From Anolis carolinensis (lineage: Eukaryota): a DNA stretch of 64,000 nucleotides. Location of the stretch: assembly GCF_035594765.1 (NCBI RefSeq), contig NC_085844.1:236918107-236982106 (forward strand). The letters are read 5' to 3'. Below the pieces are notes generated by a model that worked only from the letters and a program-made list of their open reading frames with translations, ran no database searches and had not been told where the DNA came from. Each line of letters begins with the position of its first letter. Position 1 is the first letter of the stretch. The position numbers were made by a program, and so were the translations under genes. Positions 16,132 to 41,900 of the stretch are shown here, piece by piece.

Positions 16132-16202
<71 letters not shown>

Positions 16203-19200
16203 TCTGGGAAGAACAAATCATAATGAAGTAAACCCCCCATAGTTTATTTCTCTGAACCAGAAATGCACAATTTACAGTTTGGAGTCAGTATGACTCTCCT
16301 CATATTCTAGGGTTCTTTCACACTATCCTACAGTGTTATTTTCCACTTTAATAGCCCTGGCAATATCCTAAGTCTATATGTGTCCATACATTTACATGCA
16401 TGACAGATGTCATTTTGGACTCAGCCATCTCTATCCATGCTGCGCAAGACTGAAAAGGTTATGCCTCCCTCTTGCATCCCCTTTGATGGAATCGTGTTCA
16501 TCTTATTCACACCCATCATAGACTCCATTCAACCAACTAAATCCTTAAAGAGCCACACACTCATCTCATTTGTGTTTCCATTGCCTATCTTACCCAGGGC
16601 TCTCCCCAAGAGTTGCGGACAATCCAGTATTCGATTCCGTTTTCTACTCCCCAGCCAGAAACGCTGACAACGTGGTTTGCCATTGCTGTCTCATTGTATT
16701 CAGTAAAAATGCCTCCTGTGTATTCATCCAGCTTTGGAGTCTGCATAATTGAACAGCTGTTTAAAAACAACAAAATGCAATTTTAAAGATGCTGCTGAGA
16801 TTAAATGTATGCTCTAGTGCCGCCGAAATAAAGAATCATATCTTGATGATCTCATAACATTGAAATTCATGGTAAGAAATATAATCTTACAGGCTTGTAA
16901 CCACACTCCAAGGCCATGTAACAAAGCCCCCCATTAACCTGAAGATGGTGCCAGAAAGTGGCACTACCTTCAGGTTAAGGAGCCCCTGATGGCACAGCGG
17001 GTTAAACCGCTGAGCTGCTGAACTTGCTGACTGAAAGGTCGGTGGTTCAAATCCGGGGAGCAGGGTGAGCTCCCACTATTAGCCTCAGTTTCTGCCAACC
17101 TAGCAATTTGAAAACATGCAAATGTGAGTAGATCAATAGGTACTGCTTTGGTGGGAAGGTAACAGCGCTCCATGCAGTCATGCCAACCTTGAGGTGTCTG
17201 AGGACAATGCTGGCTCTTTGGCTTAGAAATGGAGATAAGCACCAACCCCCAGAGTTGGACACAACTAGACTTAATTTTGTGCCACAAAATAGCATGTATA
17301 CTACCATCACTGATTCCTCATCTTCATAAAAGAAAGCAATAATTTTGGTTCAGCCTGTTTTAATTTCTTTCTGTAGTGGGATTCACCACTCACTAGAAGA
17401 AATGAAATGGAAGAAATGAACTATTAGCCAATCTTCTTCTGCTCGAGACATGAAACAAATTCAGACTCATTCAATCAACAGAGTGAAGAGTCTGAAACAG
17501 TGGTGTCACCACAGCATGTAAACAATACAAACCCTCAGTGGAGGTTACACCAAAATGACTTGCCTATAGAAAAAACTGCTCTGCAGAAAGTTACTGTCAT
17601 TTTTTAAAAAAAATACCTCTGTAGTTAGATATAACTATAAAAATGTTTTCATAACCCAGCTTTATTACTCTATGCTAATTTCCTTTTTGATACCTTCTAA
17701 TAATTTGTAGGCACTCCATTCAGAATTGTCATTATTACCAATGACAATGATGGTGTGAGTCAAATAGTTTCATCTGTGCATGCTGGTTTTTCATAATTGT
17801 TGTTTTTGTCAATTTATGATACATTAGTTACAGTATTGTGGAGTAGTCTGGTCTGGTATGTTACTTGTACTGAAATTATAGTGCGTCTTACAATCAATTG
17901 TGTCTCAAAATTGAAGAAATATGGTATTATCTAGTCACAAGATCTGCATCCTGTCAGATCCCTAAAATCTGAAGGAAAGCAAGAGTCATAGCCATTTTGA
18001 AACGAGGCAGACCATAACAATCAATAAAACTATAGACCAATGTTCTTGTTGAGCCATCTTTTTAAAGCTCTGGAGAGACTTATCCTGCCCAGAATTGTGA
18101 AAAAAAATAGATCAATTTATGATCCCAGAGCAAGCTAGTCTGAGGAAAGGGAAAAGCTGCACATCACAAGTGCTGGACCTGACTCAGATGGTTTTGAAAG
18201 ACAGCAGATTACAGGAGCTGTCTTCATAGACCTGTCAGCAGCTTATGCTACTGTCAAAAAATGTATACAGTACTATCACAAAGGATTATCACCTCACCTG
18301 CTTCATAGGAAATCTGCTACAAAACAGAAGTTTTTTTGTTGAGTTCCAGGGCCAGAGAAGCAGATGGCAGAAATAGAAGAGTGTGCTTGCTCCATAAATG
18401 TTTAATATTTACAGAAATGACCAGCCACTGCCAGAAGGGACAGAGAGTTTCATCTATGTTGACGATTGTGCCATCACAACCCAAGCAGGGAGCTTTGAAA
18501 TGGTTAAACAGAAGCTCTCTGAAGCTTTAGGTGCTCTTACTAACTAATACAGGGAAAACCAGCTGATTCCTAATCTATCTAAAATGCAGACGTGGCTTTT
18601 CATCTTAAGAACAGACATGAATTTTGAGGATTACCTGGGAAGAAATCCCACTGGAGCATTGCAGCACACCAAAATACCTGGGAGTTATTCTGGACCATGC
18701 TATGACTTACAAGAAGCACTGCTTGAATATCAAGCAAAAAGTGAATGCTATAAATAATATCATATGAAAGCTGACTGGCACAACCTGCGGATCACAACCA
18801 GACACAGTGAAGACATTTGCCCTTGCGCTTTGCTACTCTGCTACTGAATATATATGCCCAGTGTGGAATACATCTCACCACATTAAAACAGTGGATGTGG
18901 CTCTTAATGAGATATGCCGCATTATCACAGGATGTTTACGCCCTACACCACTGAAGAATTAGCCAGTACTGCAACACCTGACATCCGTTGGGAAGTAGCA
19001 GCCTGTAATGAAAGGACCAAGGCATTGACATATCTGGCCGATTCTCTGTTCGGATTTCAGTCAGCAAGCAAATGTCTTAAATCAAGAAATAACTTCATAA
19101 GATTGTAGAGATACTCACAGGAACACCTCAGCAAGAGAGAGTCCAAAAGTGGCAGGTTAAAATCTGGAACTATAATCAGTGCCTGATTCCAGATGAGAAA

Positions 19201-22200
19201 CTCCCGCCTGGGCACACAGAATGCTGGGCAACATGCAAGGCGCTGAACAGACTGCGCTCTGGCACCACCAGATGCAGAGCTAACCTTAGGAAATGGGGCT
19301 ACAAAGTGGAGTCCACAACATGTGAGTGTGGAGAAGAGCAAACCACAGACCACTTACTACTCTGCAGTCTGAGCCCTGCCACATGCACAATGGACCTGCC
19401 ACATACACCTTCTAACAATGACACCAGAGGCACTCGAAGTGGCCGGCTTCTGGTCAAAGGAAATTTAGTACAATGCCAAGCTTTTAACTTTGTTTGTGTT
19501 TTTTGTACGCATTATAACTGTATTCTCAATTTGTTTCTGACACGATAAATAAATAAAACCTAGTCACTGTCTATAAAGGCTTCATTTCCTTACCTGATTG
19601 GTCCATTTGCATAGATTTCTCTCATCATATCTTCTCGCCCACTGATATATTCATAATCTCCCACTTTCCAACGGGTGTAGTTCTTTACCACATAACATTT
19701 GTTGAAGATAACACAGGTCCCACATTTAGTAAACTTCTTGCACTCTGCAAAAAGGTTGGTAAGAGAAAGCTTTGACTGACGTGAAAAGTTGCCTTTCATC
19801 TAGTAACAAAAAAGAGTGAAATAAAATTCTGCAATGCCTTCCTGTCATCTGGATTTAATCCTTTTTTATTTCTTTATTTATTCATAGAGATACCTAAGCA
19901 CCCTCCTATTCAATTCATACAGGAATCGGGCCACAGGTACTAGAGAGAAAAGGAAGAGGCAGAATCTTGCCCTTCCCTGTATTCTACCAGCAAACTACTT
20001 TTCCATTTTGAATTCAATTTGCAGCAAATGAAGTAAACCAAGAAGAAAGTGAAATGGCAGACAAAGGTTTGAGATAATGAGACAAAGAGAGTTCCGGTTG
20101 CTGTAGAAAAAGACGTTTATTCTCAGTGGCCAGAGAGAATAAGCAATAGGAAGGACCTTCTCCTGTAATCAGGAAAGCAAAGGTACAGAACAAAGAAACA
20201 CAGGTTCTTATATACCTTTTTTGCCTCCATCTACCTACGTCATATAGGCATTATCCATCACCAATTAGTGTCAAAAAAGTCTTATTTTGCACTTTACTAA
20301 AAGCTACTTTTGCATTTTCCTAAAATATAGACTACTTTCAAGACCTCTGACCCTCCATTAGGCCTTATCTAAGGAATTCCTATCTAAGCTTTCTGAGGTT
20401 CCCATTAATTGAAGAATTCCCCCTTATCCTAGCTTTTAGGGAGTCATTAGCACTCCTACATGGCGCCAGGTCTTATCTTGACATCCCAAAAGCCTTAATT
20501 TGTCTTTTGTCCATTATCTTATCTATTCTTGTTGACACTTGACATATGTCTCTGGCACTTAAGGTGAACTTTGGTCTCTGCTTATAGGGAGACGGTTATT
20601 TGCTAGGCAGCGTGTATTTTGGGGCTATATGCACACAATCTGCTTGTGATTACATATTTTCCTATTCCTATTTCTAATATGATTGCATTCAATATGTAGT
20701 TTCCAATGCAAGTATTATATTCTCCCAATACACCTTCATCAAAAGGAGGGAAATAAAAGGCGAAAAGGAAAAACTCAAAGATTTGAAAAGCATCTGAAAA
20801 AGCAGCCATAATCGGGGCTACAGAGTCAGACCCTTGACCTCTTCCAGGTGGAAATGCCAGGCACCTTTCCTGTGTTTGCCAGACACATAATGTTTGCAAA
20901 TTCCAACATGCATTCTCTGTATTATGCTGTACTTCTCTGTTTTAATTATTTGTGATTTAAACAATTCTGACTAGCAAACAGAATTTATAATAGAGTAGAA
21001 AAATAAAACAGAAATCCATGTCTTACTTTGATCCTTAGCTACATAATTGCTGCATGTCTCATCCGGGATGCCATGGCGATGGGCATATCTCCACACGAGC
21101 ATCTCGTTTCCACCCTTGCAAGACCCACCACGAGAACAATCCACAACATGCTGAACTGAGAGAAAAGCAGAAGGCCAGGCCCCTTTTCTCTTGATGTTGA
21201 TGCGGTCTGAGAAATGGAGGCAAACAACAGTTGATTAAAGGCATGAACAGAAATTTCCAATATTCTGCAGTTTGTGTAATATCTTACAGTTCTAATAGAA
21301 TGAGTGGAACATGCACCTCTTTCAAACCATACCCTTGCCTAGAACACTCTATTCTACACTATCCAATTTTCTCATTTTCAATGGTTTGAGGATATTATTT
21401 GTTTTCAACTGACAATTTGATAGCCCATCTATCCCCAGTTTTCCTCTAAGGTTTGTTTGTTTCCCTCTGAAACTTCTTCAAGCTTCCTTGTAGGGCACTG
21501 GAAGTCACATAAGGCTACACAGAGCTCTGCACTCAGATAATTGATTTCAATTACATAAGATGGAAATGTTGGGATTTGCCCTGTTTAAGGGACTCCCCCC
21601 GCCCCCCAGTGATGCAAGGTCTTTGCTAGGAGCAACATTCACTTTGCTAATTCCTCTAACAATCAGGAATACCATTCCCACAAATATCAGTGAATGAGGC
21701 AAAGTGTCGGCAGGATGAAAGTCTCACCTGGAACCACTCTGAGTGTGACCTCTGTGCACCTTTGTGTGTATGTCATCTCAGCAGTGAAAAGAAAAATACA
21801 TTTGCATCCCTGTCAAGTGGCTGTGGAACCACATGGAATGGTAAGGCTATGGTTTCAAGGTGGGGGGTAAATAGAAGGGAATTGTTGGAATGTGTCTCCG
21901 TCAACAACATAAAACTGAGGAATGAATCAAGCTGATGTCCAGAAGCAGATGAGCCCCCTTCCTCTTTTCCAACTACCACTGTCTTTGTCTTGGAGGGAGA
22001 GAAGAAGAGGCAGTATCTGCTGGACTTCATGCTGTCCCGCACAGCCGTCTGCTTTTTCTCTGTGTCATGTCTTAATTAGACTGTAAGGCTGAGGCGGGAT
22101 GCCCAGAGCAACATTTACTCCATAAATTTCCCCCTGCAGTATATTCCTGTTACAAAGATGCACACCTTTAGAGGGTTTGCAATTTATTTGTTCTAGACCT

Positions 22201-23487
22201 TCGTCTGTTCATTTTTCTTCAAACCTGCATCCTGATGCTCCTAAAATAGCTTTTTGAAATGGTTAATGGTTCTCTGGAGACATCTGGGACATCATTGTGG
22301 TTGGGAGAATGGGTCACATTAAGGAATACATGCGCCTTACAGATACACTTGGTCTACTGCTGCTCCATGGGAGCTGGGAACAAGGGAGCTGATAATCACA
22401 ATAGGAAAATGACAGGCACATACCGGCCAGGGCGCTGGTGGCAGCATGAGCCCAGCAAGACCCACAGAACTGTGGGACACCCTGGTTGCGAGTAGGACTT
22501 GCGTAATTGACGCCGTTCACATTTCGCCAGTCCCACTTCTTGGGGATTTCTGACATGTTCAGGTATTCATGTGGACGAGAGTAAGTTCTGTGATGCGAGA
22601 AACAGGATGGAGAACGTAAGACTTTTTCTATAGTCAGGCAAGGATCATAGCATTTCCTCCTCCATCTTAAGAAGTGGAATAAATTAGAATCATATTCAAA
22701 TTAGAATCATAGAGCGAGAAGTGATTCCAAGAGCCATCCAGCCCACCACTGTTCTGTTATGCAGGAATACACAACCAAGCCACGTCTGACAGATGGCCAT
22801 CCAGCCTCCGTTTAAAAGCTCCCAAATAAGGAAATTCGACTTCACTCTGAGTTAACTGTTATTGTCAACTTAACAGCAGGTAACAACAACTAAGCCACTG
22901 GTGGAGCCCTCAGTGGTGTAGTGGATTAAAGCCTTGTAACTTGAAGGTTGGGTTGCTGACCTGAAGCTGCCAGGTTCGAATCCCATCCGGGGAGAGCGCA
23001 GATGAGCTCCCTCTATAAGCTCCAGCTCCATGTGGGGACATGAGAGAAGCCTCCCACAAGGATGGTAAAAACATCAAAACATCCGGGCATCCCCTGGGCA
23101 ACGTCCTTGCAGACAGCCAGTTCTCTCATACCAGAAGCGACTGACACGAATAAAAAAGTCACTGGCTAGGCAAACTGTACCTAGCAAAATGCTCTCTTCT
23201 CCCCAAATATCAAAGATAAAAGAGGCTTTTCTTTCCTCATCAGTGCACTCTGTGTGGCAGAGCAGGTTGCCAGATGTAAGATCTAGGCTGGACTATAGGG
23301 ATAAGGAGGAGCAGGGTTACCTGGGATTGTCACCTTACCTGACTCCTTGAATCCTGTGTGGCATTGGTTTGTAGCAACTTTCCCCTTCCTTGAAATGGAC
23401 AGTAGCAGCTGATACAGGAGAATGGCAGACATAGGCACACAGCAGTAGCGCCAGGATAAAGAAGGGCAAGTGGGCATTTACGGGCAT
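14027..23487 (-). CDS. Cathepsin Z-like paralogue A (306 aa, intact); exons 23487-23339, 22587-22424, 21206-21027, 19744-19594, 16756-16594, 14140-14027
   Basis: GCCATG start; signal peptide [20 protein letters not shown]...; pro-peptide SCYKP; [14 protein letters not shown]; ANHVV; RNSWGEPW; ends YGDPIIP*. Exon sizes 149/164/180/151/163/114 total 921 nt. All introns GT-AG, no stops or frameshifts. Confidence 0.93.
14538..15460. mobile_element. Probable solo LTR (Gypsy-like) in intron 5 of A, with a nested Sauria SINE fragment (~15215-15423); homologue at ~39357-40536 in C
   Basis: TGTCATG...CATGACA inverted termini and ggact-rich body. The nested SINE has TSD ctagggtcattg. No clean TSD for the LTR itself. 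Confidence 0.5.
16131..16203. repeat. (GTT)n(ATT)n microsatellite
   Basis: Directly visible. Confidence 0.95.
16979..17275 (+). mobile_element. Sauria SINE
   Basis: ggagcccct..gttaaaccgctgagctgctgaacttg..catgcaaatgtgagtagatcaatagg consensus. Confidence 0.8.
17939..19559 (+). mobile_element. 5'-truncated Vingi/Ingi-type LINE in intron 4 of paralogue A
   Basis: Decayed RT-like coding sequence, C-terminal [11 protein letters not shown] motif, 3' end ctgacacgataaataaata, and 8-bp TSD ctagtcac (17931-17938, 19560-19567). Family name assigned from recall. Confidence 0.75.
20050..20741 (-). mobile_element. Solo LTR (692 bp) in intron 3 of paralogue A
   Basis: TG...CA termini and 4-bp TSD aaag. 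Minus-strand TATATAA (20214-20208) then AATAAA (20121-20116); CCAAT at 20261. Absent from the homologous site in C (about 43620-43635). Confidence 0.75.
22903..23155 (+). mobile_element. AnolisSINE2-type SINE in intron 1 of A (absent in B and C)
   Basis: A and B boxes, 3' ctgacacg end, and flanking cactgg duplication. Confidence 0.8.
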
Positions 23488-23879
23488 GGCTCCCACCTCT
23501 TGTGACAGTCCTAGCAAAAGTAGGATGCACACGGCTCCAACAGACCTACAGGAAAAAAGATATCTCCATAGATTGCAGCCTTAAAATATTACAATAAGAA
23601 ATTGTTGAGCCAGGAAATATGCTTCTACCTTCTGTTGTTGTTTTCTTTGCCCTGGCTACTATGAAATGCAGCTGGCCAGAGGGTTCCTTCCTTTATTATG
23701 TTGCCCAGCTTGTCAGAGAAGTCAAAGATGGAATTGAATTCTTGCATCATCTGAGCAGCCGTTTTATATGGTTTCCGTCCTCCCTATCTCAGCTTTAGTA
23801 TCTGAACTGATTGCCATCTGCACTGATATGTTCAACTGCTAAAATACTCTTGTAGTCTTTCAACAGTAAACTATGAACT

Positions 23880-24700: not shown

Positions 24701-27446
24701 CTGTTGACAAGAATGTTATTCTTACTAATTACTGTATTCCGGCATATGTTTAGATAGCCTTTTTCTTTTGGTTTTCTTGGATGGGGTGTGTGGCTTTCAT
24801 CCACGTCAACTGGCGTTCATGACTGCCATGATTTTCAATTTGTCTTCCAATTGCTGCCATTGTTTCCAGAGGGCAAATTCATAATCTACTTGCACACTAT
24901 TTTGCCCTTATACACATGGCCCATGGACTATTAGGATAGTACTTTCTAAAAATTGCAATGTGATTTTTGGTTGCATGTGACTTTTTATCTCATCATTAAC
25001 AACTGCACAGATTGCCATTGAACTGACAGCCACATTCTTTCCAACTGGCAAAATAAATGCTCTCTTTTTCTTATTTTCAGTAGCTACCGCTATTCTCCAT
25101 TTTGAACTACATTTATACATACAGCTAAAGGCAAATCTGTAGTTCATCTTACATAAGGGTAGCAATCAATTGAAAAATGAGACTTCAGTTAGCAATATTA
25201 TTTGAGTGGTGGCAGCTGCATTAAAAAGAGATACAAAAGTGGGTTTGGGGTGGAGGGCTGCCCATACATTCCTTATTATAAATCGCTTTTTAAATTAATA
25301 AATTTAATGCCCATATCGCAGTGCTATGAAATCCTGGGAGTTGCTTCTTTACTGGGAGTTGCTTAGGTAGCTTTTTCTGTCAAAGTGTGCTGGTGCCCCA
25401 CCATAGTTTCAGGGTATTTAGGTATTATTTAAATATCCATCCTATCAGTCCTTTTCCAGGAAATTATTCCACACTTACCAATTACAGCCTAGGATCCTAT
25501 TTTTCCGTCCCTTGGGAGAAGTCTCGATATGAAAACGTATTTGTTTTCTTCTTTCTAAGCTCATCTCTTCCTAATTGTAACTTGCATGGATCCTGTGGTC
25601 ACTCGCAATATGCATAACACATGAGTCTGGTGACCGGTGTATTACTTCTCATGTGCTTAAACCAACAGATTCTGCTTTCAAGGAACTGTGTGTCTTTCTG
25701 CCATTCATTGTATTTCCACAAAACACGGAAAATGTGTACAACTGCTGGGTGGAGGGGCAACATATTAATTAGTGAAAAAGCATCTAATTTTCAGAAGGTA
25801 TTGTAGCCGAACATTTATCAGTTGCCATCATCTAATAAATATTCCTTTCTCTGTATTCACATGCACGACACACAAATCACACCCACATATATCTTTATTT
25901 GCAACTCAGGACATGCCATCAAAGGCTTAATCCTTTTCACTTGCTGCTTCTTGTGAAACTCTTTTGAGATGGAGGACTTTCAACACGATGTAAAGGAGCA
26001 GGTGATAAAAAAAGCAACATTTTGTGTTTTCGTGAGACTTACCTTTCTCCCTTTTTCACTTCTGCTTCATGAAAGTGAAATGGATACATTTTTTTTTTCT
26101 AACGAACCTTAGGAATTATAACTCTGTTTTTCTTTTCATGTCAGGAGTGACTTGAGAAACTGCAAGTTGCTTCTGGTGTGAGATAATTGGCTATCTGCAA
26201 GGACGTTGACCAGAGGACACCTGGATGTTTGATGTTTTACCATCCTGTGTTAGGCTTCCCTCATGTCCCCACATGGGAAGCTAGACCTGATAGACGTGAG
26301 CTCACTCCGCTCCCCGGATTCGAACCGCCAACTTTTTGGTCAGCAGTTCAGCCAGCACAAAGGTTTAACCCATTGAGCCACTGGGAGTTCCTTGTAACTC
26401 TATTAAATTGTTGGAATACTTTTTCCACCTAGAGAATTCCAATTCCATATTATCCTGGATTGTAACTGGATATCTATTTGGTATACTTTGATTTTGCTTT
26501 TCCTGCATGGCATGGGGTTGGACTGGATGGCTCTCATGGCCTCTTCCAACCGGTGATTTGAAGCTTCCTACTGGCCATACTGGCTGGGATTGCCCCTCAC
26601 CACAGCCATCTTGCTTGAATTGCCCAATCAACTCTTGCAAGGTACCCAACACAAGACTACTGGTGTGAGATTTGCCTGGGCTGTGTGCTTTTGGCATGTT
26701 TGTATAAATATATGGGATTGCCAGATCTCAGGAATCCAATATCAGGGAATCAGAATTTTAGCCAATAACAAAGGGTTCCTTCCATGTCGCCTGTGACTGA
26801 ATATAACTTTAAAGGATCTATCCAAAGTGCTGAATCCATTTTCTATAAGAGGTTCAGCAATCTGGATCCACTGTTTCTCTGAAATGGAAGCTATCAGTTA
26901 CTGTTGTAAGGTTCATTTGGAAAGTCTTCTTTCACCATCAAATTACCTCCAACAGATGACCATCCTATCTCTATTTTAAATTCTCCAAGAAAGACAATAC
27001 CACCACAATCCCAGAAAGCATATTATACTATCAAACAGCTCATAGATTAGGATGATGCAGGTATTCTAAGCATATTCTTTCAGACTCTGTACCTTTCTAT
27101 CTCTTTCCAACCAACAGAAAGGCAGAAACTAATGAAATGCAAAAAAGCTATATTTGGAAAGCATATAGAAAAAAGATTGGAGCGGAAATGAGCTTACACT
27201 GGAGGTAATTTAGTAAATAATGATGTACTTCATCTCTCTTTCATTTTTAAATTATCAAACTCTGTCCAAAAATGAGATCTAGCCCAATATAAACAGAACA
27301 TAGCATGAGAAATAGCTAAGATTGTTTTTTTAAGGAAAGAAAAAACAACATTCTGTTGAATGTGTCGTCGAAGGCTTTCATGGCCGGGATCACAGGGTTG
27401 TTGTATGTCTTTCGGGCTGTGTGGCCATGTTCCAGAAGCATTCTCT

Positions 27447-27487
27447 CCTGACGTTTCGCCCACATCTATGGCAGGCATCCTCAGAGG
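27447..27487 (-). ncRNA. Minimal type I hammerhead ribozyme motif (Penelope-associated), same strand as paralogue B
   Basis: Reverse complement of 28442-28482. Confidence 0.75.
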
Positions 27488-28441
27488 TTGTGAGGTATGG
27501 ATAAACTAAGTCAGGAAAGGAAAGAATATATATCTGTGTAGAGTCCAAGGTGTGGCAAGAGTTCTTTGTCACTGGGAGCCAGCATTAATGTTTCAGTTAA
27601 TCACCCTAATTGGCACTGGAAATGTTTTGTCCCTTGCCTGGGGGCATCCTTTGTTCAGTCAAGTCCTCATTGTGTTGGTTCCCATCTACTGTTTTGATTT
27701 TGGAGTTTTGTAATACTGGTAGCCAGATTTTGTTCATTTTCATGGTTTCTTCCTTTCTGTTGAAGTTGTCCACATGCTTGTGGATTTCAATGGCTTCTCT
27801 GTGTAGTCTGACATGATAGTTGTTAGAATGGTCCAGCATTTTTGTGTTCTCAAATAGTATTCTGTGTCCAGGCTGGTTCATCAAATGCTCTGCTATGGCT
27901 GATTTCTCTGGTTGAATTAGTCTGCAGTGCCTTTCATGTTCTTTGACTCTGAGTCAAAGAACATGAAAGGCACTGCAGACTAATTCAACCAGAGAAATCA
28001 GCCATAGCAGAGCATTTGATGAACCAGCCTGGACACAGAATACTATTTGAGAACACAAAAATGCTGGACCATTCTAACAACTATCATGTCAGACTACACA
28101 GAGAAGCCATTGAAATCCACAAGCATGTGGACAACTTCAACAGAAAGGAAGAAACCATGAAAATGAACAAAATCTGGCTACCAGTATTACAAAACTCAAA
28201 AATCAGAACAGTAAATAAAAAGCAATACTCTGAAAACAGAGGGTTTCCAGACATGAATCAACCAAGGGCAGTTAACGACTCTAAACAAAGGATGCCCCAG
28301 AGGCAGGAAGAAGACAGCAGATAAGCTTTTCAATGCTAATTTAAGTGATTAACTACACTACATTCATACTGACCTCTCTCACCCTAGACTTTCCACAGAT
28401 ATATATTAACCTCTTTGCTTAGTTTTCTCCATACCTCACAA

Positions 28442-28482
28442 CCTCTGAGGATGCCTGCCATAGATGTGGGCGAAACGTCAGG
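28442..28482 (+). ncRNA. Minimal type I hammerhead ribozyme motif (Penelope-associated)
   Basis: cct-CTGAGGA-t-gcctgc-loop-gtgggc-GAAA-cg-TC-agg. Core boxes present, stem I cct/agg, stem II gcctgc/gtgggc, palindromic ACGT stem III. Confidence 0.75.
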
Positions 28483-28592
28483 AGAGAATGCTTCTGGAAC
28501 ATGGCCACACAGCCCGAAAGACATACAACAACCCAACATTCTGTTGGATTTCTTTCAGAAGACATGCATGCAAAGACAGCTCAAATGCAGGA

Positions 28593-31085
28593 TCAAGGTA
28601 TGATGGGGTCTCCATAACTGCAGTGTTCTTCCACACCCAAGTTGAAGTTATTGCCTTTTCCATTTTTATATGCACTCGTCACAATTCTAAACCAGCCGCG
28701 TTCCCCCTGCAAGATATTAATTGGTAAAGAAGTATTGGATGCAGCTCAAGTAGAAGCAATTTATTATTATACTTTTTAAAAATGCTTGTGTACCAAGAGG
28801 TAATGTTGTCCTGTCCTGGGTTATTCCTGAAGGATGCAGGTGGTCGGGGTCGGATAGTTGGGTGTTTGTGGGTAAACACAGAACAACATAATACGGTGGC
28901 TAATCAGTGAGAGCCACAAAGATAGTGAACCAGTATCCCAACATTCCCGGGTAGCTGGTAGAATATTTCACTGCTAGAATAGCAACTCACTTAATGCCTT
29001 CTGTTGGGCTATTTATTTTGAAGGCTCAACACAAATAGAAAATAGAAAATAAGTTCAGCGAATAATTTGAGTATAAAACTTATACTGTTCAAATTCACAG
29101 TAATCCCAAACAATATTGTGTGGATTTTGTACAATCACTATGAAGTAGTACCAACATCGTGTGATCTTATGCCAAGTTGAACATGAATCATCCATCCACG
29201 ACTGGTTTCGTTCTTTCTCCAGGCCTTCTTCTGGTGGTAAAGTTATAAACTTGACATTTGTTCTCCTTAGAGATACAGGTTTTTATACGTAGTGGGATGG
29301 GATACTCTGCTGTGTGTTTGATTGATGGGCGGCTGATTCATGTTCAACTCGGCATAAGAACACACAACGTTGATACTATTTCAGAGTGAATGTACAAAAT
29401 CCTAATGAAGTAAACTCCCCATAGTTTAGTTCTCTGCACCAAAAATGCACAATCTACAGTCTAAAGTCAGTATGACTCTCCTCATGTTCTAGGATCCTTT
29501 CTCACTATCCTACAGTGTTATGTTTCACTTTAATTGCCTTGGTGACATCCTAAATCTATAGGTGTCCATACATTTACATGCATGACAGATGTCATCCCCA
29601 GCCCACACTGCTCAAGACTGAAAAGGGTCTGCCTCCCTCTTGCATCCCCTTTGATGGAATAGTGTCCAACATCTTCACACCAACCGTGGACTCTACTAAA
29701 TCTGTGGACTCAACTAAATCCCTAGAGAGACATACACTCATCTCATTTGTGATTCTATTGCATATCTTACCCAGGGCTCGCCCCAAGAGTTGCGAACAAT
29801 CCAGTACTCGATTCCGTTTTCTACTCCCCAGCCAGAAACACTGACAAGGTGGTTTGCTATTGTTGTCTCATTGTATTCAGTAAAAATGCCTCCTGTGTAT
29901 TCATCCAGCTTTGGAGTCTGCATAATTGTACAGCTGTTTAAAAACAACAACAAAATATCATTTTAAAGATGCTTCTGAGATTAAATTTATTTATTTATTT
30001 ATTTATTTACAGTATTTATATTCCACCCTTCTCACCCCGAATGGGACTCAGGGCGGATCACATTATACACACATAGGGCAAACATTCAATGCCCATATAC
30101 ACATAGAACCGAGACAAAGACAGACGCAGAGGCAATTTAACCTTCTCCTCAGGGGATGTTCCATTCTGGCCACAGGGGGGAGCAGCTGCTTCCTCATCCA
30201 CTGTGACGGCACTTCCTCATTCCAACGTCGTAAATTAGTTAAATTTGCCTCCCCACTTTATAAGTGGTACCTTATTTCCTACTTGATAAATGCAAGTATC
30301 TTTCGGATTGCTAGGTCAGCAACGAGCAGGGGCTATTTTTTATTTTTAATTGACTGGTGCTCACCCCGCCACGGGCTGGCCTTGAACTCATGACCTCATG
30401 GTCAGAGTGATTTATTGCAGCAGGCTGCTCACCAGCCTGCACCACAGCCACAGCAGTGTCTAGAGTGTACAGATTAAATGTACACTCTAGACACTGCTGC
30501 CAAAATAAAGGATTATATACTGATGATCTCAGAACACTGAAACTTGCAATAAGAAAAATAATCTAGCAGGCTCATAACCACACTCCAAGGCCATGTAACA
30601 AAGCTCCTCCATTAACCTGAAGGTAGTGCCACAAAATAGCATGTCTACTACCACCACTGGTTTCTCACCCTCATAAAAGAAAGCAATGATGTAGGTTCAG
30701 CCTGTTTCAACTTCTTTCTGTAGTTGGATTCACCACTCCATAGAAGTAATGAAATGAAAGAAATAAACTGTTCTATTAGCCAATCTTCTTCTGCTCTTCT
30801 GCCTGAAACAAATTCAGACCCATTCAATCTACAGAGCAAAGAACCTGAAACAGTAGTGTCACTACAGCATGTAAACAATACAAACCCTCATTGGGGATTT
30901 CACCAAAATGACTTGCCTATAAAATATCTGTGCTAAAAAAAATTACTATTTTTTTAAAATATCCCTGTAGTTAAATATAACCATGAAAATATTTTTATAA
31001 CCCAGCTTACCTACTCTATGCTAATTTCCTTTTTGATATCTTCTAATAATTTGTAGGTATTTCATTCAGAACTTTCATTATTACC

Positions 31086-31136
<51 letters not shown>

Positions 31137-34100
31137 AATAATGGTGTGATTCAAATAGTTTCACTTGTACATGCTGATTTTTCATGATTGTTGATTTTGT
31201 CAAATTATGATATATTAGTTACAGTATTGTGGAGTAGTCTGGTCTGGTATGTTACTGGTGCTGAGTGCGTCTTACAATCAGTGATATCTCAGAATGGAAG
31301 AAATATGGTATTTTCTAGTCGCAAGATCTGCATCCTGTCAGATCCCTAAAATCTGAAGGAAAGCAGGAGTCATAACCATTTTGAAACCAGACAAAAACTG
31401 TAACAATCCACAAACCTATAGACCAATCTTGTTGTGCCATCTTTATAAATTTCTGAAGAGACTTATGCTGCACAGAATTATGGAAAAAAATAGGCCCATT
31501 TATTATCCCATAGCAAGCTAGATTGAGGAAAGGGAAAATCTGCACATAACAAATGCTGAAGCTGATTCAGCACATGGAAGATGGTTTCGAAAGGTCAGAG
31601 AAGCAGATGGCGAAAACAGAAGATCGGCCTATCTCAGGGAAGCGTGTTTGCTCCATCAATTTTTAACATTTACACAAGTGATCAGCCACTGCCAGAAGGG
31701 ACAGAGAGTTTCATCTATGCTGACAACCATGCCATCACCGCTCATCAATGGCTGATACCCGATGAGAAACTCACCCCTTGGCACACGCAATACTGGGCGA
31801 CGTAGAAAGCACTGCACAAACTGCTCTCTGGCACCACGAAGAAATGGGGCTACAAAGTGGAGTCCACAACATGTGAGTGTGGAGAAGAGCAAACCACAGA
31901 CCACCTATTACAATGCAGTCTGAGCCCTGCCACATGCACAATGGAGGATCTTCTAACAATGACACCAGAGGCACTCTGAGTGGCCAGCTTCTGGTCAAAG
32001 GAAATTTAGAACAATGCCAAGCTTTTAAGTTTGTGTTTTTTGTATGCATTATAACTTTATTCTCAATTCCTTTCTGACACAATAAATAAATAAAACCTAG
32101 TCACTGTCTATAAAGGCTTCATTTCCTTACCTGACTGGTCCATTTGCATAGATTTCTCTCATCATATCTTCTCGCCCGCTGATAAATCCAAAATCTCCCA
32201 CTTTCCAGAGGGTGTAGTTCTTTACCACATAACATTTGTCGAAAATAACACATGTCCCACACTTTGTAAACTTCTTGCACTCTGCAAAAGTGTTGGTAAG
32301 AGAAAGCTTTGACTGGCGTGGAAAGTTGCCTTTCATTCAATAACCAAAAAGAGTGAAATGAAATTCTGCAATGGTTTCCTTTCATCTGGATGACCCTTTT
32401 TACTTATTTATTTGGGGTTGTTGTATGTCTTTCGGGCTGTGTGGCCATGTTCCAGGAGTATTCTCTCCTGACGTTTCATCCACATCTATGGCAGGCATCC
32501 TCAGAGGTTGTGAGGATGCCTGCCATAGATGTGGGTGAAACGTCAGGAGAGAATACTTCTGGAACATGGCCACACAGCCCGAAAGACATACAACAAGCCT
32601 GTGATCCCGGCCATGAAAGCCTTCGACAACATACTTATTTATTTATTCATAGAGCTACCTAAGCAGCCTACTATTCAACTCATAGGAATCGGGCCATGAG
32701 CATTAGAGAGCAAAGGAAGAGGCAGAATCTTGCATTAGAAAAACCAGCCTTTCAAAGGGTTAATCGGGGCTACAGAGTCAGGCCCTGGACCTCTTCCAGG
32801 TGGAAATGCCAGGCACCTTTCCTGTGTTTGCCAGGCCCAGAATGTTTGCAAATTTCAACATGCATTCTCTGTATTATGCTGTACTGTTCTGTTTTAATTA
32901 TTTGTGATTTAAACAATTCTGTCAAGCAAACAGAATTTATGATAGAGTAGAAAAATAAAACAGAAATTCTGGTCTTACTTTGATCCTTAGCTACATAATT
33001 GCTGCATGTCTCATCCGGGATGCCATGGCGATAGGCATATAACCACAAAAATATATCATTTCCACCCTTGCAAGACCCAGCACCAGAACAATCCACAACA
33101 TGCTGAACTGAGAGAAAAGCAGAGGGCCAGGCCCCTTTTCTCTTGATGTTGATGCGGTCTGAGAAGTGGAGGCAAAGAACAGTTGGTTAAAGGCACAAAT
33201 AGAAACTTCCAGTATTCTGCAGTATATATAATATTTTACAGTTCTAATAGAATGAGTGGAATTTGCATCTCTATCAAGCCATGTCCTTGCCTTGAACACT
33301 CTATTCTACACACACTATCCAATTTTCTCATTTTCAATTGTTTGAGGATATTATTTGTTTTACATTGACAATCTGATAGCTTGCCTATCCCCAGTTTTCC
33401 TCTAAGGTTTGTTTGTCTCACTCTGAAACTTCTTCAAGCTTGCTGAGAAATGATTTCAGTGACATAAGATGGTAATGTTGGGATTTGCCCTGTTAAGGGA
33501 TGCTCCCCAGTCATGCAAATTTTTGCTAGGAGCAACATTCACTTTGCTAATTCCTCTAACAATCAGGAATACAATTCCCACAAATAACAGTGAATGAGGC
33601 AAAGTGTCGGCAGGATGAAAGTCTCACCTGGACCTCTCTGAGTGTGACCTCTGTGCGCCTTTGTGTGTATCTGATCTCAGCAGTGAGAAGAAAAATATGT
33701 TTGCACCCAAGTTTCAATTGATGCTAATATGTATTGCCCATCATATTCCCTTTCAAGTGGCTGGGGAACCACATGGAATGGTAAGGCTATGGTTTCAAGG
33801 TGGGCGTAAATAGAAGGGAATTGTTGGTTTGTGTCTCCATCAACAGCATAAAACCGAGGAATTAATCAAGCTGATGTCCAGAAGCAGATGAAGCCCCTTC
33901 CTTTATTCCAATATCCACTACATTTGTCTTGGAGGAACGAGGCAGTATCCACTGGACTTCATGCCATCCTACATAGCCGTCCAATTTTTCTCTGTGTCAT
34001 GTCTTAATTAGATTGTAAGGCTGAGGCGGGATGCCTAGAGCAACATTTACTCCATAAATTTCCCCCTGTAGTATATTCCTGTTACAGAGATGCACAACTT

Positions 34101-34984
34101 CAAAGTGTTTGGAAGTTATTTGTTCTAGACCCTCATCTGTTCATTTTTTTTTCAAACTTGCATCCTGATGCTCCTAAAATAGCCTTTTGAAATGGTTAAT
34201 GGTTCTCTGGAGACATCTAAGACATCATTGTGGTTGTTTTGATGAAGACATTTTGGTATGGGAGAATGGGTCACATTAAGGGATACATGCGTCTTTCAAA
34301 TGCACTTGATCGACTGCTGCTCCATTGGAACTGGGGATAAGGACAGGGTGATAAACACAAGACAAGAACAGCCACATACCGGCCAGGGCGCTGGTGGTGC
34401 CGTGAGCCCAGCAAGATCCACAGAACTGTGGGACGCCCTGGTTGCGAGTAGGACTTGCGTAATTGACACCGTTCACATTTCGCCAGTCCCACCTCTTGGG
34501 GATTTCTGACATCTTCAGGTATTCATGTGGACGAGGGTAAGTTCTTTGATGCAAGAAACAGGATGGAGACTGTTATAAAAGCTCCCAAATAAGGAGATTC
34601 AACTTCACTCCGAGTTAACTGTTACTGTCAACTTAACAGCAGCTAATGACAACAAAGCCACTGGTGGGCAAATTGTACCTAGGAAATGCTCTCTTCTACC
34701 CAAATATCAAAGAAAAAAAAGGCTTTTCTTTCCTCATGAGTGCACTCTGTGGGGCAGAGCAGGTTGCCAGATGTAAGATCTAGGCTGGGCTATAGGGACA
34801 TGGGGGAGTAGGGTTACCTGGGATTGTCACCTTACCTGACTCCTTGAATCCTGTGTGGCATTGGCTTGTAGCAACTTTCCCCTTCCTTGAAGTGGACAGT
34901 GGCAGCTGATGCAGGAGAATGGCAGACATAGGCACACAGCAGAAGTGCCAGGATGAAGAAAGGCAGGTGGGCATTTACGGACAT
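28593..34984 (-). CDS. Cathepsin Z-like paralogue B (306 aa, intact); exons 34984-34836, 34543-34380, 33158-32979, 32281-32131, 29933-29771, 28706-28593
   Basis: Same exon sizes and phases as [11 protein letters not shown]...SCYKP; [17 protein letters not shown]; [11 protein letters not shown]; ANHLV; RNSW; [12 protein letters not shown]. The exon 2 acceptor is AAG instead of CAG. Confidence 0.92.
29987..30450 (-). mobile_element. tRNA-headed, L2-tailed SINE in intron 4 of B (second copy ~48649-49092 -)
   Basis: Two near-identical dispersed copies; L2-type stem-loop tail with (taaa)n; TSD agattaaat. Confidence 0.7.
31087..31134. repeat. (ATT)n microsatellite
   Basis: Directly visible. Confidence 0.95.
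31323..32096 (+). mobile_element. Internally deleted copy of the same Vingi-type insertion in paralogue B
   Basis: Same ends and TSD (ctagtcgc/ctagtcac). The empty site is at 43142-43149 in copy C. Confidence 0.75.
32414..32632. mobile_element. Short palindromic Penelope-like remnant in intron 3 of paralogue B; minus-strand hammerhead motif at 32467-32507
   Basis: Two inverted copies of the same terminal sequence as in 27359-28533. Confidence 0.8.
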
Positions 34985-36969
34985 GGGTCCCAGGTCTTGT
35001 GACAGTCCCAGCAAAAGTAGGATGCACACAGCTCCAACAGACCTACAAGAAAAAAGATATCTCCATAGATTTCAGCTATAATAATATTACAATAAGAAAT
35101 TCTTAAAGCAGGAACTATGCTCCTACCTTTCGTTGTCGTTTCCCTTGCTCTGGCTACTATGAAATGCAGCTGGCCAGATAGTTCTTTCCTTTATTATATT
35201 GTCCAGCCTGCCAGTGAAGTCAAAGATGGAATTGCATTGTTGCAGTACCTCAGCAGCTGTTTTATAGGTTTCCATCCCTCCTATCTCAGCTTCAGTATCT
35301 GCACTGATTGACATTTGCACTGATATGTTCAACTGCCGAAATACTCCCATAGCCTTTCAACAGTAAACTATGAACTACACACAAGAATGTTCTTCTTATT
35401 TTTCACTGTGTTCCGGCATATGTTTAGCTAGCCTTTTTCTGTTGGTTTTCTCGGATGTGGTGTGTTGCCTTCATTCATGTTAACTGGCATTCATGACTGC
35501 CATGATTTCCAACTTGTCTTCCAGTTGCTGCCATTGTTTCCAGAGGGCAAATTCATAATCTATTTGCCCACTATTATGCCCTTATAAACATGGCCCATTG
35601 ACTATTAGAATAGTACTTTCTTAAAATCGTAATGTGATTTTAGTTGCACATGACTTTTTATCTCATCATTAACATCTGAAAAGATTGACATCTGAACTGA
35701 CAGCCACATGCTTTCCAACTGGCAAAATAAATGCTCTCTTTTTCTTATTTTCAATAGCTATCCCTAGAAGTGTTTTCCTAGTCTCCTTTTCTAACTACAT
35801 TTATATATATGCATAACCCATGAGTCTGGTAACCTGTTTATTCTAAAGTGCTTAAAGCAAGAGGTTCTGCTTTCAAGGAACTTTGTGTCTTTCTGCCTTT
35901 GATTGTATTTCCACAAAACACTGAAAATATTTAAAACTGCTGGGTGGAGGAGCACCCTATTAATTACTAAAAAAGCATCTGATTTTCAAAAGGTATTGCA
36001 GCCATCATCTTCACATCTCTGTCTAACCCAGAATTGGAAAACTACGGCCTTTCAAATGTACTCTTTTCTCTGTACTCATACACACACATGCATGTATATC
36101 TTTTTTGATAGACACACACGTACAGTATATCTTTTTTGTTTGCAGCTCATTATATGCCATCAAAGGCTTAATCCTTTTCACTTGCTGCTTCTTGTGAAAC
36201 TCTTTTGAGATGGACGACTTTCAACATGTCAAGGAGCAGGTGATGAAAAAGCAACATTTTGTGTTTTTGTGAAACTTAACCTTTCTCCCTTTTCACTTCT
36301 GCTTCATGAAAGTGAAATGGATACCATGGCTTTTTCTAATGAACCTTAGGAATTGGAACTCTGTTACACTGTTCGGATACTTTCTCCACCTTTAGAATTC
36401 CAATTCCATATTAAACTGGATTGTAACTGGATATCTATTTGGTATACTTTGATTTTGCTTTTCCTGCATGGCATGAGGTTAGACTGGATGGCTCTCATGG
36501 CCTCTTCCAACCAGTGATTTGAAGATTCCTATTGGCCATACTGGCTGGGATTGCCCCTCACCACAGCCATCTTGCTTGAATTGCCCAATCAACTCTTGCA
36601 AGGTACCCAACACAAGACTACTGATGTGAGATTTGCCTGGGATGCGGGTTTATGAAATTATTTTATAAATACAGTATATAGGATTGCCAGATCTCAATAA
36701 TCTAATTTCAGGGAATCAGAGTTTTTGCCAGTAACAATGGGTGCCTTCCATGTCTCCTGTGACTGAGTACAGCTTTAATAGAACGATCCAAAGTGCTTAT
36801 TCCAATTTCTAAAAGAGGTTCAGAAATCTGGATCCACTGCCTTTCTGATATGGAAGCTATCAGTTACTACTGTAAGGTATATTTGGAAAGTTTTACTTCA
36901 CCATCAAAGCACTCTCAACAGATGGCCATCCTATCTCTATTCAAAATTCTCCAAGAAAGATGATACTAT

Positions 36970-38446: not shown

Positions 38447-38985
38447 CAATCTCAGGCAGTGTATTATATCATAAAACAGTTCATAGATTAGGATGAAGCA
38501 GGTAGTTCTAAGCATATTCTTTCAGACTCTGTACTTTCTATCTTTTTCCAACCAACAGAGAGGCAGAGACTCATGAAATGCAAAAGAGCTATATTTGGAA
38601 AGCATATAGGAAAAAGATTTGGGGTGGAGATAAGATTACACTGGAGGTAATTTAGTAAATACTGTTGTACTTCATCCCTCTTTCATTTTTAAGCTCTCAA
38701 ACTCTTCCCAAAAATGAGATATAACCCAATATAAACAGAACTTTGCATGAGATGCCACACAGGATACAGACTCCCTCCCTCTCTGCCCCTTCCCGCTCCT
38801 TTGAGTGAATGTTATGTGCAGGTTTGAATAGAAAAGATAAACAAACAAACATATGTCTCTAGACTATTATAGTATTGCTATTTTGCACAGCTGAAAAGCT
38901 AATCTTACTTTTTTAAGGAAAGAAAAAAACATTATATTGGATTTCTTTCAGAAGACATGCGTGCAAAAACAGCTCAAATGCAGGT

Positions 38986-41900
38986 TCAAGGTATGATGGG
39001 GTCTCCATAACTGCAGTCTTCTTCCACACCCAAGTTGAAGTTATTGCCTTTTCCATTTTTATATGCACTCGTCACAATTCTAAACCAGCCGCGTTCCCCC
39101 TGCAAGATATTAATTAGTAAAGAAGTATTGGAAGGAGCCCAAGCTGAAGCAATTTTTTATGATCCTACTTTACAAATGCTTGTGCACCAAGAGTTAATTG
39201 GGTTATTCCTCTGGTTGCGGTGGGATATTTAGGTGTTCATGGTTGGATACAGAACAACATAGTATGACAGTTGATCAGTGAGAGCCACAAGGGTAGGCTA
39301 AGCATCCTTCCTAAAAGATTTAGACTAGGGATAACCAGTTTTCTGGTGGTGATTTATGTCACGGCCAGAAGTTAGTCTGGCTTGGCTGCTGCTGGGTGCT
39401 TGGAAAGAGTTAATCTGATTCAGCTTCTTGGGTCAAGATTACTTTTCCTTTTAAGGAATGCATCAGAGGCTTCTGTGATGATCTGTACAGGCTTGAATAA
39501 ATGAATAGCAACAAGAATCTCAGGATAAATAATGGGTCTGGAAGAGACAGCTGTTTGGTAACAGGTGACATAGTACCTTCGTAATTGTATCATAGACTTT
39601 GGCTGTTGTAGGAGCTGTGGTGGCGCGATGGGCTAAACCTTTTTCTGCTGAACGGCTGACCTGAAGGGTGAACTCCGTTTGTCAGATACAGTCCCTGTCA
39701 ACCTAGCAGTTTGAAAACATGTAATGTGAGTAGATAAATAGGCACCACTTCAGTGGGAAAAGGGCAAGGAGATGTTCAAAGCAATATTTCCAGCAACACA
39801 ATCAGGAGATGACAACACAGGCTCCTCAGCTTGAAAAATGGAGGAGAGCACCTCTGCAGAACCAGAGATGACGCACTGCCTCCAGAAGCCGGAAATGAAA
39901 AGGAGAAGCCCCTGCCTTTGTTGTGTTTGTGTGTCTCATTTGTATATGATTGTAATGGCATTGGATGTATGTAAATGCTGTAATCCATTCTGAGTCCCCT
40001 AGGGGAGAAGGGCAGAATATAAATAAAGTATGTTGTTGTTGTTGTTACCCTGGTTTAGAATGTTGGATCCTAACCTTGTTCCTTCAACTCCCTTTTGGAC
40101 TCCACCGCTTTTAAAAACTTGTCTTGTTGTTCCCTGAACCCTGGCATCTTGGTTGACCTTCTTGGATTTGACATATGGACTTGGACTTTTCTTTTACCCT
40201 TGACTATTTGACTCAACTTTGGAACTCTGAGTACGGTTTGCATTCTTGAACTCTGGAACACTATCCGAAGTGAACTCTCGCAACCTGACTTTTGGACTGC
40301 AGACTTAGCTACTGTTTGTTCTTGCTCCTGAACCGCCTCTATAGTATTTTCAGCCTTTGATCATGATTTGTGTAACCCTGGCTGTGTGCTGTATTTCGGT
40401 TTTGTCTGGTCAGATCCTTGAAAGACTTAAGGCTTTTGTTCTCAGTTTAAAGAAGTCTGGCCTTGGATCATTCTGTGTGTGTGTGTTTCTTTAATATATA
40501 AAACTCTGCCAGGGTTAGAGCTGCCCAGAACATGAGTTTCCCTTGAAATCTGATGGTAAGCATGGTATGTTTTGGTAAGTCTCAATTTATGATCAAGCTG
40601 CTTACATCCATGAATATAGTACATATCAAAGGTCTCTAAGGATCTTATTCCAAAGAAACAAAACCCCAGGAAACACTTGCACTGATGAAGTTTGCATTCT
40701 TCAGAAATCTGGAATGCAAAAGTGCATAAAAACATGGGCCACTTCTTGAAATTATAGATAAGTTTCCATTGGTGTTTAGCTACCACAGAACTGGTCCTGA
40801 GATCCTTCACATGAAGTGATCAATGAAGGTGTGACCAATGTCCTTTCTCACAGGTTGTAGCCCACAAGTATCTAAGCAAAATCTCACCCAGTGATGCAGT
40901 GAGGACTTGCCAATGAATGTCCTTATTTTGATTTCAACCTCTTTATAGTTGCTGTGACATGTGGTAGTGGAAAGGGGAATCACATATGGCCTCGTGGCCT
41001 CAAATCATATCAAGCTAGACTTGTCAGCTAATACTTCACATTCTGCATACTAACATAAAGATTACCATTTGTACAAAATCTTTCAGACATTGGAATGATT
41101 CAGCACAGTGTGATATCTAATCTTATGAATATTAAATGTAGCTATATGGATTATCAGAAGCACAAATGATAATTAAGTAAACCCCCCATAGTTTATTTCT
41201 CTGCACCACAAATGCACAATCTACAGCCTGGGGTCAGTAACTCTCCTCATGTTCTATGGTCCTTTCACACTATCCTATAGTTTTATGTTCTATTTTAATA
41301 GCCCTGGTAACAACCTAAGTCTATATGTGTCCATACATTTACTTGACAGCTGTAATTTTGGACCCAGCCATCCCCAGCCTACACTGCTCAGGACTAAAAA
41401 GGGTCTACCTGCCTCTTGCATCCCCTTTGATAGTATAATGTTCATCATCTTCACACCCACCATGGACTTTATTCATCCAACTCAAGCCTTTAAAGAGCCA
41501 CACACTCATCTCAATTTTGCTTCCTCTGCCTGTCTTACCCAGGGCTCGCCCCAAGAGTTGCGGACAATCCAATATTCGATTCCGTTTTCTACTCCCCAGC
41601 CAGAAACACTGACAACGTGGTTTGCCATTGCTGTCTCATTGTATTCAGTAAAAATGCCTCCTGTGTATTCATCCAGCTTTGGAGTCTGCATAATTGTACA
41701 GCTGTTTAAAAACAACAACAAAACACCAGTTTAAAGATGCCACTGAGATTAAATGTATACTCTACACCAGTGGTTCCCAACCTTTTTTTTGACCAGGGAC
41801 CACTTTGACCAGGGACCACTCTCCAACATTAGTATCAAAAGGATTACAAATCAGTTTTTGGTCAACTTTAGATTCAGCTTGGTTATCTGGGATGCCGATT

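What the first reader, a model, noticed from the sequence alone, without database searches (positions are those of the whole stretch)
27346..28593. Paralogue B 3' UTR contains a 247-bp perfect hairpin followed by a sense-strand hammerhead ribozyme
Seen: a Penelope-like insertion (13-bp TSD; empty site in C at ~38928-38940) begins about 60 nt after the stop codon of B. Arms 27703-27949 and 27951-28197 are perfect inverted repeats with a 1-nt spacer, and the outer termini are also inverted. A hammerhead core lies at 27487-27447 on the mRNA strand. I see no minus-strand AATAAA or ATTAAA between the stop and the ribozyme. Established: Penelope-like elements carry minimal hammerheads and often have inverted ends. 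Inference: B mRNA could form long dsRNA (ADAR/Dicer/PKR substrate) and be self-cleaved, silencing or tuning one family member. The DNA palindrome may also destabilise the array.
Basis: partly seen in the sequence, partly recalled or inferred. Interest (0 to 1): 0.7.

Follow-up and report, generated by a model that had tools for sequence, protein, structure and literature searches.

The report
Young Penelope foldback in cathepsin UTR
A very young copy of a common lizard jumping gene (Penelope-like) sits back-to-back just after the stop codon of one cathepsin Z gene copy; its mirror shape is routine for this element, other animals likely lack it, and its self-cutting RNA motif is predicted to be locked in a long duplex, so it is likely a passenger, odd only because its two arms come from different subfamilies.

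Summary
In detail: 247-bp perfect arms with a 1-nt spacer, a 13-bp TSD, a hammerhead core at 27484-27450 and no AATAAA/ATTAAA. It is a 1,175-bp head-to-head insertion of a young Poseidon-type Penelope-like element, 59 nt past the stop of cathepsin Z paralogue B.

The shape is routine: 97 of 140 sampled young copies have an inverted partner arm, and 3 have longer perfect palindromes (579-830 bp). The scan noted such foldbacks elsewhere in this genome.

Self-cleavage is not supported. A perfect antisense copy of the ribozyme is transcribed 1 kb earlier and pairs with it (predicted p 1.0); minimal hammerheads need a dimer, and the tested anole one needs the element's protein. B-type RNA contigs from other samples run past the site without the insert, so it is likely polymorphic, not a tuned switch. 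Long dsRNA in carriers is plausible but untested.

One real oddity: the arms come from two subfamilies, seen in only 1 of 75 other typed pairs, yet meet at a symmetric junction. This excludes an assembly fold-back and simple self-copying; it likely reflects gene conversion of one arm or a template switch.

The parts
27346..27358 (+). Left copy of the 13-bp target-site duplication
   Evidence: identical to 28534-28546
27359..27950 (-). Left arm: 5'-truncated Poseidon-type element (unit positions 2167 to end, then +1 to +120), tailed
   Evidence: 592 nt, identical to L-type copy L031 except 3 bases in the tail
27359..27394 (-). Tail (start of the next ORF, to +120), of R-subfamily type (+91, +93, +113)
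   Evidence: +1 to +120 is 120 of 120 identical to the ORF start of R-type copy L041
27447..27487 (-). Minimal type I hammerhead on the mRNA strand (C3 27484, element ATG 27478, C17 27450)
   Evidence: predicted fully paired with 28442-28482 in read-through RNA
27502..27702 (-). L-subfamily ORF end and 3' UTR; does not match the right arm well
27703..28197 (.). Perfect 247-bp palindrome, 1-nt centre; ORF 3' segment that is identical in both subfamilies
27951..28533 (+). Right arm: 5'-truncated R-subfamily copy (unit position 2168 to end, then +1 to +83), tailless
   Evidence: 583 nt, 1 difference from L041; 100% to many copies
28442..28482 (+). Second hammerhead (plus strand); its complement in the B transcript masks the sense ribozyme
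28534..28546 (+). Right copy of the TSD
28593..28706 (-). Coding part of the last exon of cathepsin Z-like paralogue B, stop at 28595-28593
   Evidence: spliced joint 28705-29770 in two RNA-like runs; Peptidase_C1 in other exons
38927..38939 (+). Matching site without insert in paralogue C

Best explanation
This is a very recent, likely polymorphic head-to-head insertion of a Poseidon-type Penelope-like retrotransposon 59 nt past the stop codon of cathepsin Z paralogue B, likely made when both cut target strands primed reverse transcription, and its hammerhead is predicted to be silent because a perfect antisense copy earlier in the same transcript would pair with it. Shown: the anatomy, the near-identity to young copies, and that inverted arms with one tail are the family's usual product. 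Inferred: one priming began at +120 (tailed arm) and one at +83 (tailless arm); in carriers a read-through mRNA would fold into a hairpin of about 580 pairs, an incidental burden rather than a regulatory device. The L-type segment in the left arm is most likely (about 50:40) a gene-conversion patch laid into an originally all-R symmetric palindrome during repair, rather than a template switch at insertion.
For: Intact 836-aa ORFs with RT domain elsewhere. Arms identical or 1-3 nt from single young copies; TSD intact. At least 738 tailed young copies by exact pattern (176 L, 562 R). Of 140 sampled: 97 have an inverted partner, 31 none, 12 run off the locus; partner tailless in 71 of 73 scored; perfect arms of 100 bp or more in 6 of 97, three longer than here. 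Inverted 5'-truncated copy plus one-sided tail is the described layout (PMC8557442); PAc cuts and extends both strands and starts at two internal sites (PMC11167929). Fold of stop-to-27200 RNA: positions 27492-27444 paired with 28437-28485 at p 1.0; duplex -109 against -14 kcal/mol for the local fold. Runs X18 and X20 (one study): B-type contigs (0 and 1 differences; C differs at 6 of 171) go on for 135 and 375 letters that do not fit the insert. For conversion: junctions symmetric to 1 nt are a real class (6 of 97 against 0.34 expected), the tail is R-type, and L-UTR plus this tail type occurs only 5 times, the other 4 being old copies.
Against: No reads from a carrier: read-through, editing and cleavage were not observed either way. 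The loose letters of the X18/X20 contigs were not printed, and the X20 contig did not lay on this assembly's B flank at 95%, so 'empty allele' is inferred; these may be another haplotype of the array. X19's hint has only 17 letters beyond the site, and its exon contig stops at 28534 for an unknown reason. Equilibrium folding ignores co-transcriptional kinetics. The mixed arms cannot be assigned between conversion, template switch and a chimeric donor; L114 is a second mixed pair with an asymmetric junction, which favours two templates at least sometimes. Sequence identity with Repbase Poseidon_Ac could not be checked (the .gbk supplement is unreadable).
Confidence: 0.85

Rival explanations
1. 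The insert is a regulatory device: B mRNA is self-cleaved by the hammerhead and tuned or silenced relative to A and C.
For: Intact core on the mRNA strand; no canonical poly(A) hexamer before it; the site lies in the transcribed 3' UTR.
Against: Core fully paired with its antisense copy; only one sense copy, no stem III loop; monomers inactive (PMC4209133); PAc ribozyme inactive without the element protein and no RNA-seq ends at the cut site (PMC11167929); insert brand-new and apparently absent from other samples.
Confidence: 0.04
2. The mixed arms were made at insertion: both primings used an R-type RNA, and the tailed cDNA switched to an L-type RNA inside the 113-nt shared hammerhead region (27389-27501), or the donor was a chimeric L-pLTR/R-ORF tandem.
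For: The L-to-R switch lies in a shared window that holds the ribozyme cut site; L114 is a second mixed pair, R-tailed with an L-like tailless arm and an asymmetric junction; PAc is predicted to be a dimer (PMC11167929).
Against: Independent templates should rarely stop within 1 nt of each other (0.4% of unrelated pairs); no chimeric donor found: the 4 other L-UTR/R-type-tail matches are old, 93-97% identical copies without a following ORF. A donor could sit on the unassembled haplotype or in another animal.
Confidence: 0.4
3. The palindrome or the mixed arms are an assembly artefact (fold-back or chimeric join).
For: No listed contig from the 7 runs laid shows an insertion junction (tables were cut).
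Against: A fold-back copies one arm, but these arms differ over about 200 nt and by the tail; intact TSD; same anatomy as 97 of 140 other copies.
Confidence: 0.03
4. Carrier transcripts never include the hairpin because B polyadenylates at the AAGAAA at 28554, helped by the GU-rich end of the insert.
For: AAGAAA lies 39-43 nt after the stop in all three paralogues; the X19 exon contig ends at 28534.
Against: Insert-free B contigs run 135 and 375 nt beyond the site; contigs cannot show RNA ends; AAGAAA is a weak variant (recalled).
Confidence: 0.2

Closest known systems
PAc / Poseidon_Ac of Anolis carolinensis (Frangieh et al. 2024, PMC11167929)
   Same: ORF starts at stem II of the hammerhead; cut site 26 nt after the start codon (+29 here); tail ends near +111-118 (+120 here); tandem pLTR-ORF-pLTR copies; AT-rich target.
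   Different: Here only two 5'-truncated ends, head to head; two young subfamilies with different 3' UTRs and a mixed-arm copy are not mentioned in the parts read. Base-level identity to the Repbase entry was not testable.
Canonical EN+ Penelope-like insertions with inverted pLTR and tail (PMC8557442; PMC3846280)
   Same: Adjacent inverted 5'-truncated copy, 30-40-bp tail at one end only, TSD, palindromic junction.
   Different: PMC3846280 explains junction palindromes by self-priming, which predicts identical arms; this copy has a symmetric junction but arms of two subfamilies.
Minimal type I hammerheads of metazoan PLEs (Cervera and de la Pena 2014, PMC4209133)
   Same: Core CUGAnGA / GAAA / GUC, extra unpaired U before stem II, no helix III loop, opposite-strand pairs 100-700 bp apart noted there.
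   Different: Helix I is only 3 bp here; opposite-strand cores are 960 nt apart and lie in a host 3' UTR.
Inverted-repeat 3' UTRs such as inverted Alu pairs (recalled, no call)
   Same: Oppositely oriented retroelement copies forming long dsRNA open to ADAR editing and nuclear retention.
   Different: One insertion event, near-perfect pairing, likely polymorphic; no expression or editing data for a carrier.

Membership tests
Penelope/Poseidon PLE (EN+) | Single ORF with RT in full-length relatives | tested here: met
   836-aa ORFs in L031, L032; RVT_1 E 1.7e-13
Penelope/Poseidon PLE (EN+) | C-terminal GIY-YIG endonuclease | tested here: inconclusive
   Pfam gave no GIY-YIG hit for the full ORF or the arm ORFs; the arms carry the ORF's C-terminal end
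Penelope/Poseidon PLE (EN+) | Tandem pLTR-ORF-pLTR organisation | tested here: met
   Units of 2638 (L) and 2667 (R) bp in L031, L032, L041
Penelope/Poseidon PLE (EN+) | Inverted 5'-truncated partner and one-sided 30-40-bp tail, TSD | tested here: met
Poseidon_Ac (PAc) itself | Sequence identity to the Repbase entry | not testable with these tools
   File S1 (.gbk) not readable; short motifs not found in text supplements; ATG, cut-site and tail geometry agree with the paper
Minimal type I hammerhead | Conserved core, extra U before stem II, stem II, short stem I, no helix III loop | tested here: met
   stem II 6 bp, stem I 3 bp; no Rfam match at gathering score
Minimal type I hammerhead | Able to adopt the active (dimeric) fold in its transcript | tested here: not met
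   Predicted only: core paired to antisense copy at p 1.0; alone it folds no better than shuffles and not in the active form (z -0.11)
Minimal type I hammerhead | Measured self-cleavage | not testable with these tools
   needs an in vitro assay
Functional 3' UTR regulatory element | Fixed or conserved, and present in expressed mRNA | tested here: inconclusive
   B-type contigs in X18, X20 lack it; X19 and X1 hint the same; no carrier RNA seen

The most novel reading that the evidence does not exclude
This insertion is a natural labelling experiment for the unsolved Penelope integration cycle: its two inverted arms were copied from two different RNA molecules (subfamilies L and R), with a template jump inside the hammerhead, showing that inverted pLTRs arise by double priming with a dimeric enzyme and not by self-priming fold-back; the young L/R subfamily pair in this genome lets the model be tested genome-wide.
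Probability: 0.3. Interest if true: 0.55.

Novelty: new member of a known kind. Interest (0 to 1): 0.24.

Why it matters
As a regulatory ribozyme it likely does not matter. Two modest uses remain. First, how Penelope elements form their tandem and inverted ends is described as undefined (PMC8557442). Two young subfamilies with a shared ORF and different UTRs mark the template of each arm, and the counts here (74 of 75 pairs concordant; 11 of 97 junctions symmetric against 1.5 expected; rare mixed pairs) constrain the models. Second, an active family that makes near-perfect 100-800-bp palindromes in about 6% of its inverted insertions gives natural alleles for testing long dsRNA in a host 3' UTR and palindrome stability in a reptile.

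Tried and rejected
Rfam scan: no match. Pfam on the two arm ORFs: none. Search for a chimeric L-pLTR/R-ORF donor: 5 pattern matches, ours plus 4 old truncated copies; none a donor. Truncation hot spot at the junction: one search was uninformative (642 matches, mostly point variants of older copies by their listed first base; loci not examined); one search gave 10 matches, 4 other copies truncated at the same base and 5 point variants, so no marked hot spot. Sequencing runs: no RNA holder listed on record; RNA status of X18 and X19 rests on a spliced GT-AG joint. X10 and X2 were uninformative at the junctions. X1 is flagged as a possible source and is left out of the study count; its contig stops fitting at 27358 with 31 letters unlike the insert. 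Literature searches that gave nothing relevant: Penelope + twin priming + inverted (2 papers, listing only), cathepsin Z + Anolis + duplication, Penelope + inverted + gene conversion + subfamilies + palindrome (1 plant review, listing only). Simple self-priming fold-back was rejected for this copy because the arms differ.
Full report
OBSERVATION. All coordinates hold. The arms 27703-27949 and 27951-28197 are a perfect 247-bp inverted repeat around one T; the outer ends are inverted over 111 nt at 99%; the 13-bp TSD is intact. The host gene is a papain-family protease, one of three minus-strand cathepsin Z-like paralogues (the name rests on recalled motifs and on PMC9712828 passages). Its stop is at 28595-28593, 59 nt from the insert, and there is no AATAAA or ATTAAA on the mRNA strand down to 26300. 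The hammerhead core runs from C3 27484 to C17 27450. A second, identical core lies on the plus strand at 28445-28479.

THE ELEMENT. Both arms match many places of the genome at 99-100%. Full-length relatives are tandem units with an 836-aa ORF and an RT domain (no GIY-YIG hit from Pfam). The ATG sits at stem II, the cut site at +29 and the tail ends at +120, as described for PAc of Anolis carolinensis (PMC11167929, parts 1-2 of 4 read), so the organism is likely the green anole; base-level identity could not be checked. Two young subfamilies exist, here called L and R: 16 differences over the first 2415 nt between one copy of each, none in 2168-2414, then different 3' UTRs. The palindrome is perfect simply because it lies in that invariant stretch. 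Exact patterns count 176 L-UTR/L-tail, 562 R-UTR/R-tail, 5 L-UTR/R-type-tail and 1 R-UTR/L-tail ends.

HOW USUAL IS THE SHAPE. I examined 140 of these 738 ends (70 L, 70 R), taken in listed order on contigs C1-C3. For the last 80 I skipped tandem neighbours, loci already held and two visibly diverged matches; four insertions in the first 60 are counted from two ends. Result: 97 have an inverted partner at the 5' junction, 31 none (one, L075, has a partner behind an internal deletion), 12 run off the locus. The partner is tailless in 71 of 73 scored. Perfect arms of 100 bp or more occur in 6 of 97, including 579 bp with a 1-nt centre (L080), 678 bp and 830 bp. Junctions symmetric within 10 nt occur in 11 of 97 against 1.5 expected by permutation, within 1 nt in 6 against 0.34. 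Inverted truncated partners with a one-sided tail are the described layout of these elements (PMC8557442 passages; PMC3846280 passages). Earlier notes of this scan report the same kind of foldback at other places in this genome (unchecked AI notes); none lies near this site.

THE RIBOZYME. In a transcript running from the stop through the insert, the complement of the plus-strand core is made about 1 kb before the sense core. The predicted fold pairs 27492-27444 with 28437-28485 at probability 1.0 within a hairpin (582 pairs in the fold); the duplex is worth -109 kcal/mol against -14 for the local fold. Alone, the motif does not fold into the active form and is no more stable than shuffles. 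Single minimal hammerheads showed no activity and multimers low activity (PMC4209133, part 1 of 4 and passages); the PAc ribozyme cut only with the element protein, and no RNA-seq reads ended at the site. Self-cleavage of B mRNA is therefore unlikely; this is prediction and analogy, not measurement.

IS IT SHARED AND TRANSCRIBED. No run was on record as RNA. Of 7 runs laid, X18 and X19 show the spliced joint 28705-29770, so B is likely transcribed. X18 and X20 (one study) have B-type contigs (0 and 1 differences over 28535-28705; C differs at 6) that go on for 135 and 375 letters not fitting the insert. X19 has a contig over 27287-27358 with 17 further letters that do not fit the tail, which would overlap its exon contig by 30 nt as an insert-free allele predicts; this is under the tool's 31-letter bar. 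X1, a possible source, also leaves the stretch at 27358. Against: the loose letters were not printed, the X20 contig did not lay on this assembly's B flank at 95%, X10 and X2 were uninformative, and the tables were cut. With the intact TSD and near-zero divergence, a polymorphic young insertion is the likely reading. These contigs also show that the site lies inside the 3' UTR, so carriers would likely make the hairpin unless they polyadenylate at AAGAAA 28554.

THE ODDITY. The left arm is identical to L copy L031 up to +90 and then carries the R-type tail, 120 of 120 identical to the ORF start of R copy L041; the right arm is R. In the sample, partners matched the tailed arm's subfamily in 36 of 36 (L) and 38 of 39 (R) typed pairs; 22 could not be typed; the exception is L114. 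Concordance does not prove one RNA, since one donor may be active per cell or period. The other four L-UTR/R-type-tail ends are old copies, and no chimeric donor was found. Mixed arms exclude an assembly fold-back and plain self-priming. Two origins remain. (a) An all-R symmetric palindrome of about 583 bp, like L080, broke and one arm was patched from an L copy; this explains the 1-nt symmetry and the R tail. (b) A template switch from R to L RNA within the shared 113 nt around the ribozyme, or a chimeric donor; this fits L114 but needs a 0.4% coincidence for the symmetry. I put these at about 50:40. Searches showed no paper on mixed-subfamily arms in their listings; subscription journals were not searched.

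VERDICT. A real but ordinary insertion of a known, tested element; the ribozyme is likely inert; dsRNA in carriers is plausible and untested; the mixed arms are a small, testable clue to the Penelope cycle. Interest 0.24.

Noticed in passing
window 2481-9014 (+) versus 14027-23574, 28593-35071, 38986-45631 (-): Four cathepsin Z-like genes: a divergent plus-strand copy reading [11 protein letters not shown], and three minus-strand paralogues reading [11 protein letters not shown]. The His of the mini-loop that docks the substrate's C-terminus in cathepsin X (His23, PMC9712828 passages) is Gly in all three while the catalytic motifs remain, so they may have lost carboxypeptidase specificity. One search found no paper on this duplication.
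   Followed up: partly
window 32415-32631: A second, older (96%) head-to-head stub of the same element in an intron of B, with two damaged hammerhead cores; it could pair with the UTR arms in pre-mRNA (I13 and I20).
   Followed up: partly
window 52388-52483: A third, single end of the element with one core change.
   Followed up: no
window 27310-27311 versus 38753-38893: B's 3' flank lacks a segment of about 140-200 bp present in C, and lacks the AATACA found 329 and 525 nt after the stops of A and C; B has no canonical poly(A) hexamer within 2.3 kb.
   Followed up: partly
L114 (G000:C1:58118473-58121607): Second mixed-arm insertion: R-type tailed arm with a short L-like tailless arm, asymmetric junction.
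   Followed up: partly
L080, L072, L194, L195: Perfect palindromes of 579 bp (1-nt centre), 678 bp (5 nt), 830 bp (11 nt) and 181 bp (0 nt) made by the same family.
   Followed up: no
L087, L150, L134; L083, L088, L136, L146: Repeated 5' truncation at unit positions 2341 and 1654 in L copies, two with 115-118-nt spacers, which may mark donors with a truncated upstream pLTR and carried-over flank.
   Followed up: no
window 27346-27358: The target site itself is a small imperfect palindrome (CAACA-TTC-TGTTG); the TSD of L005 is similar.
   Followed up: no
window 7091-7377 and 29122-29402: Other inverted repeats (121-nt arms at 95%; 72-nt arms at 87%), likely small DNA transposons.
   Followed up: no
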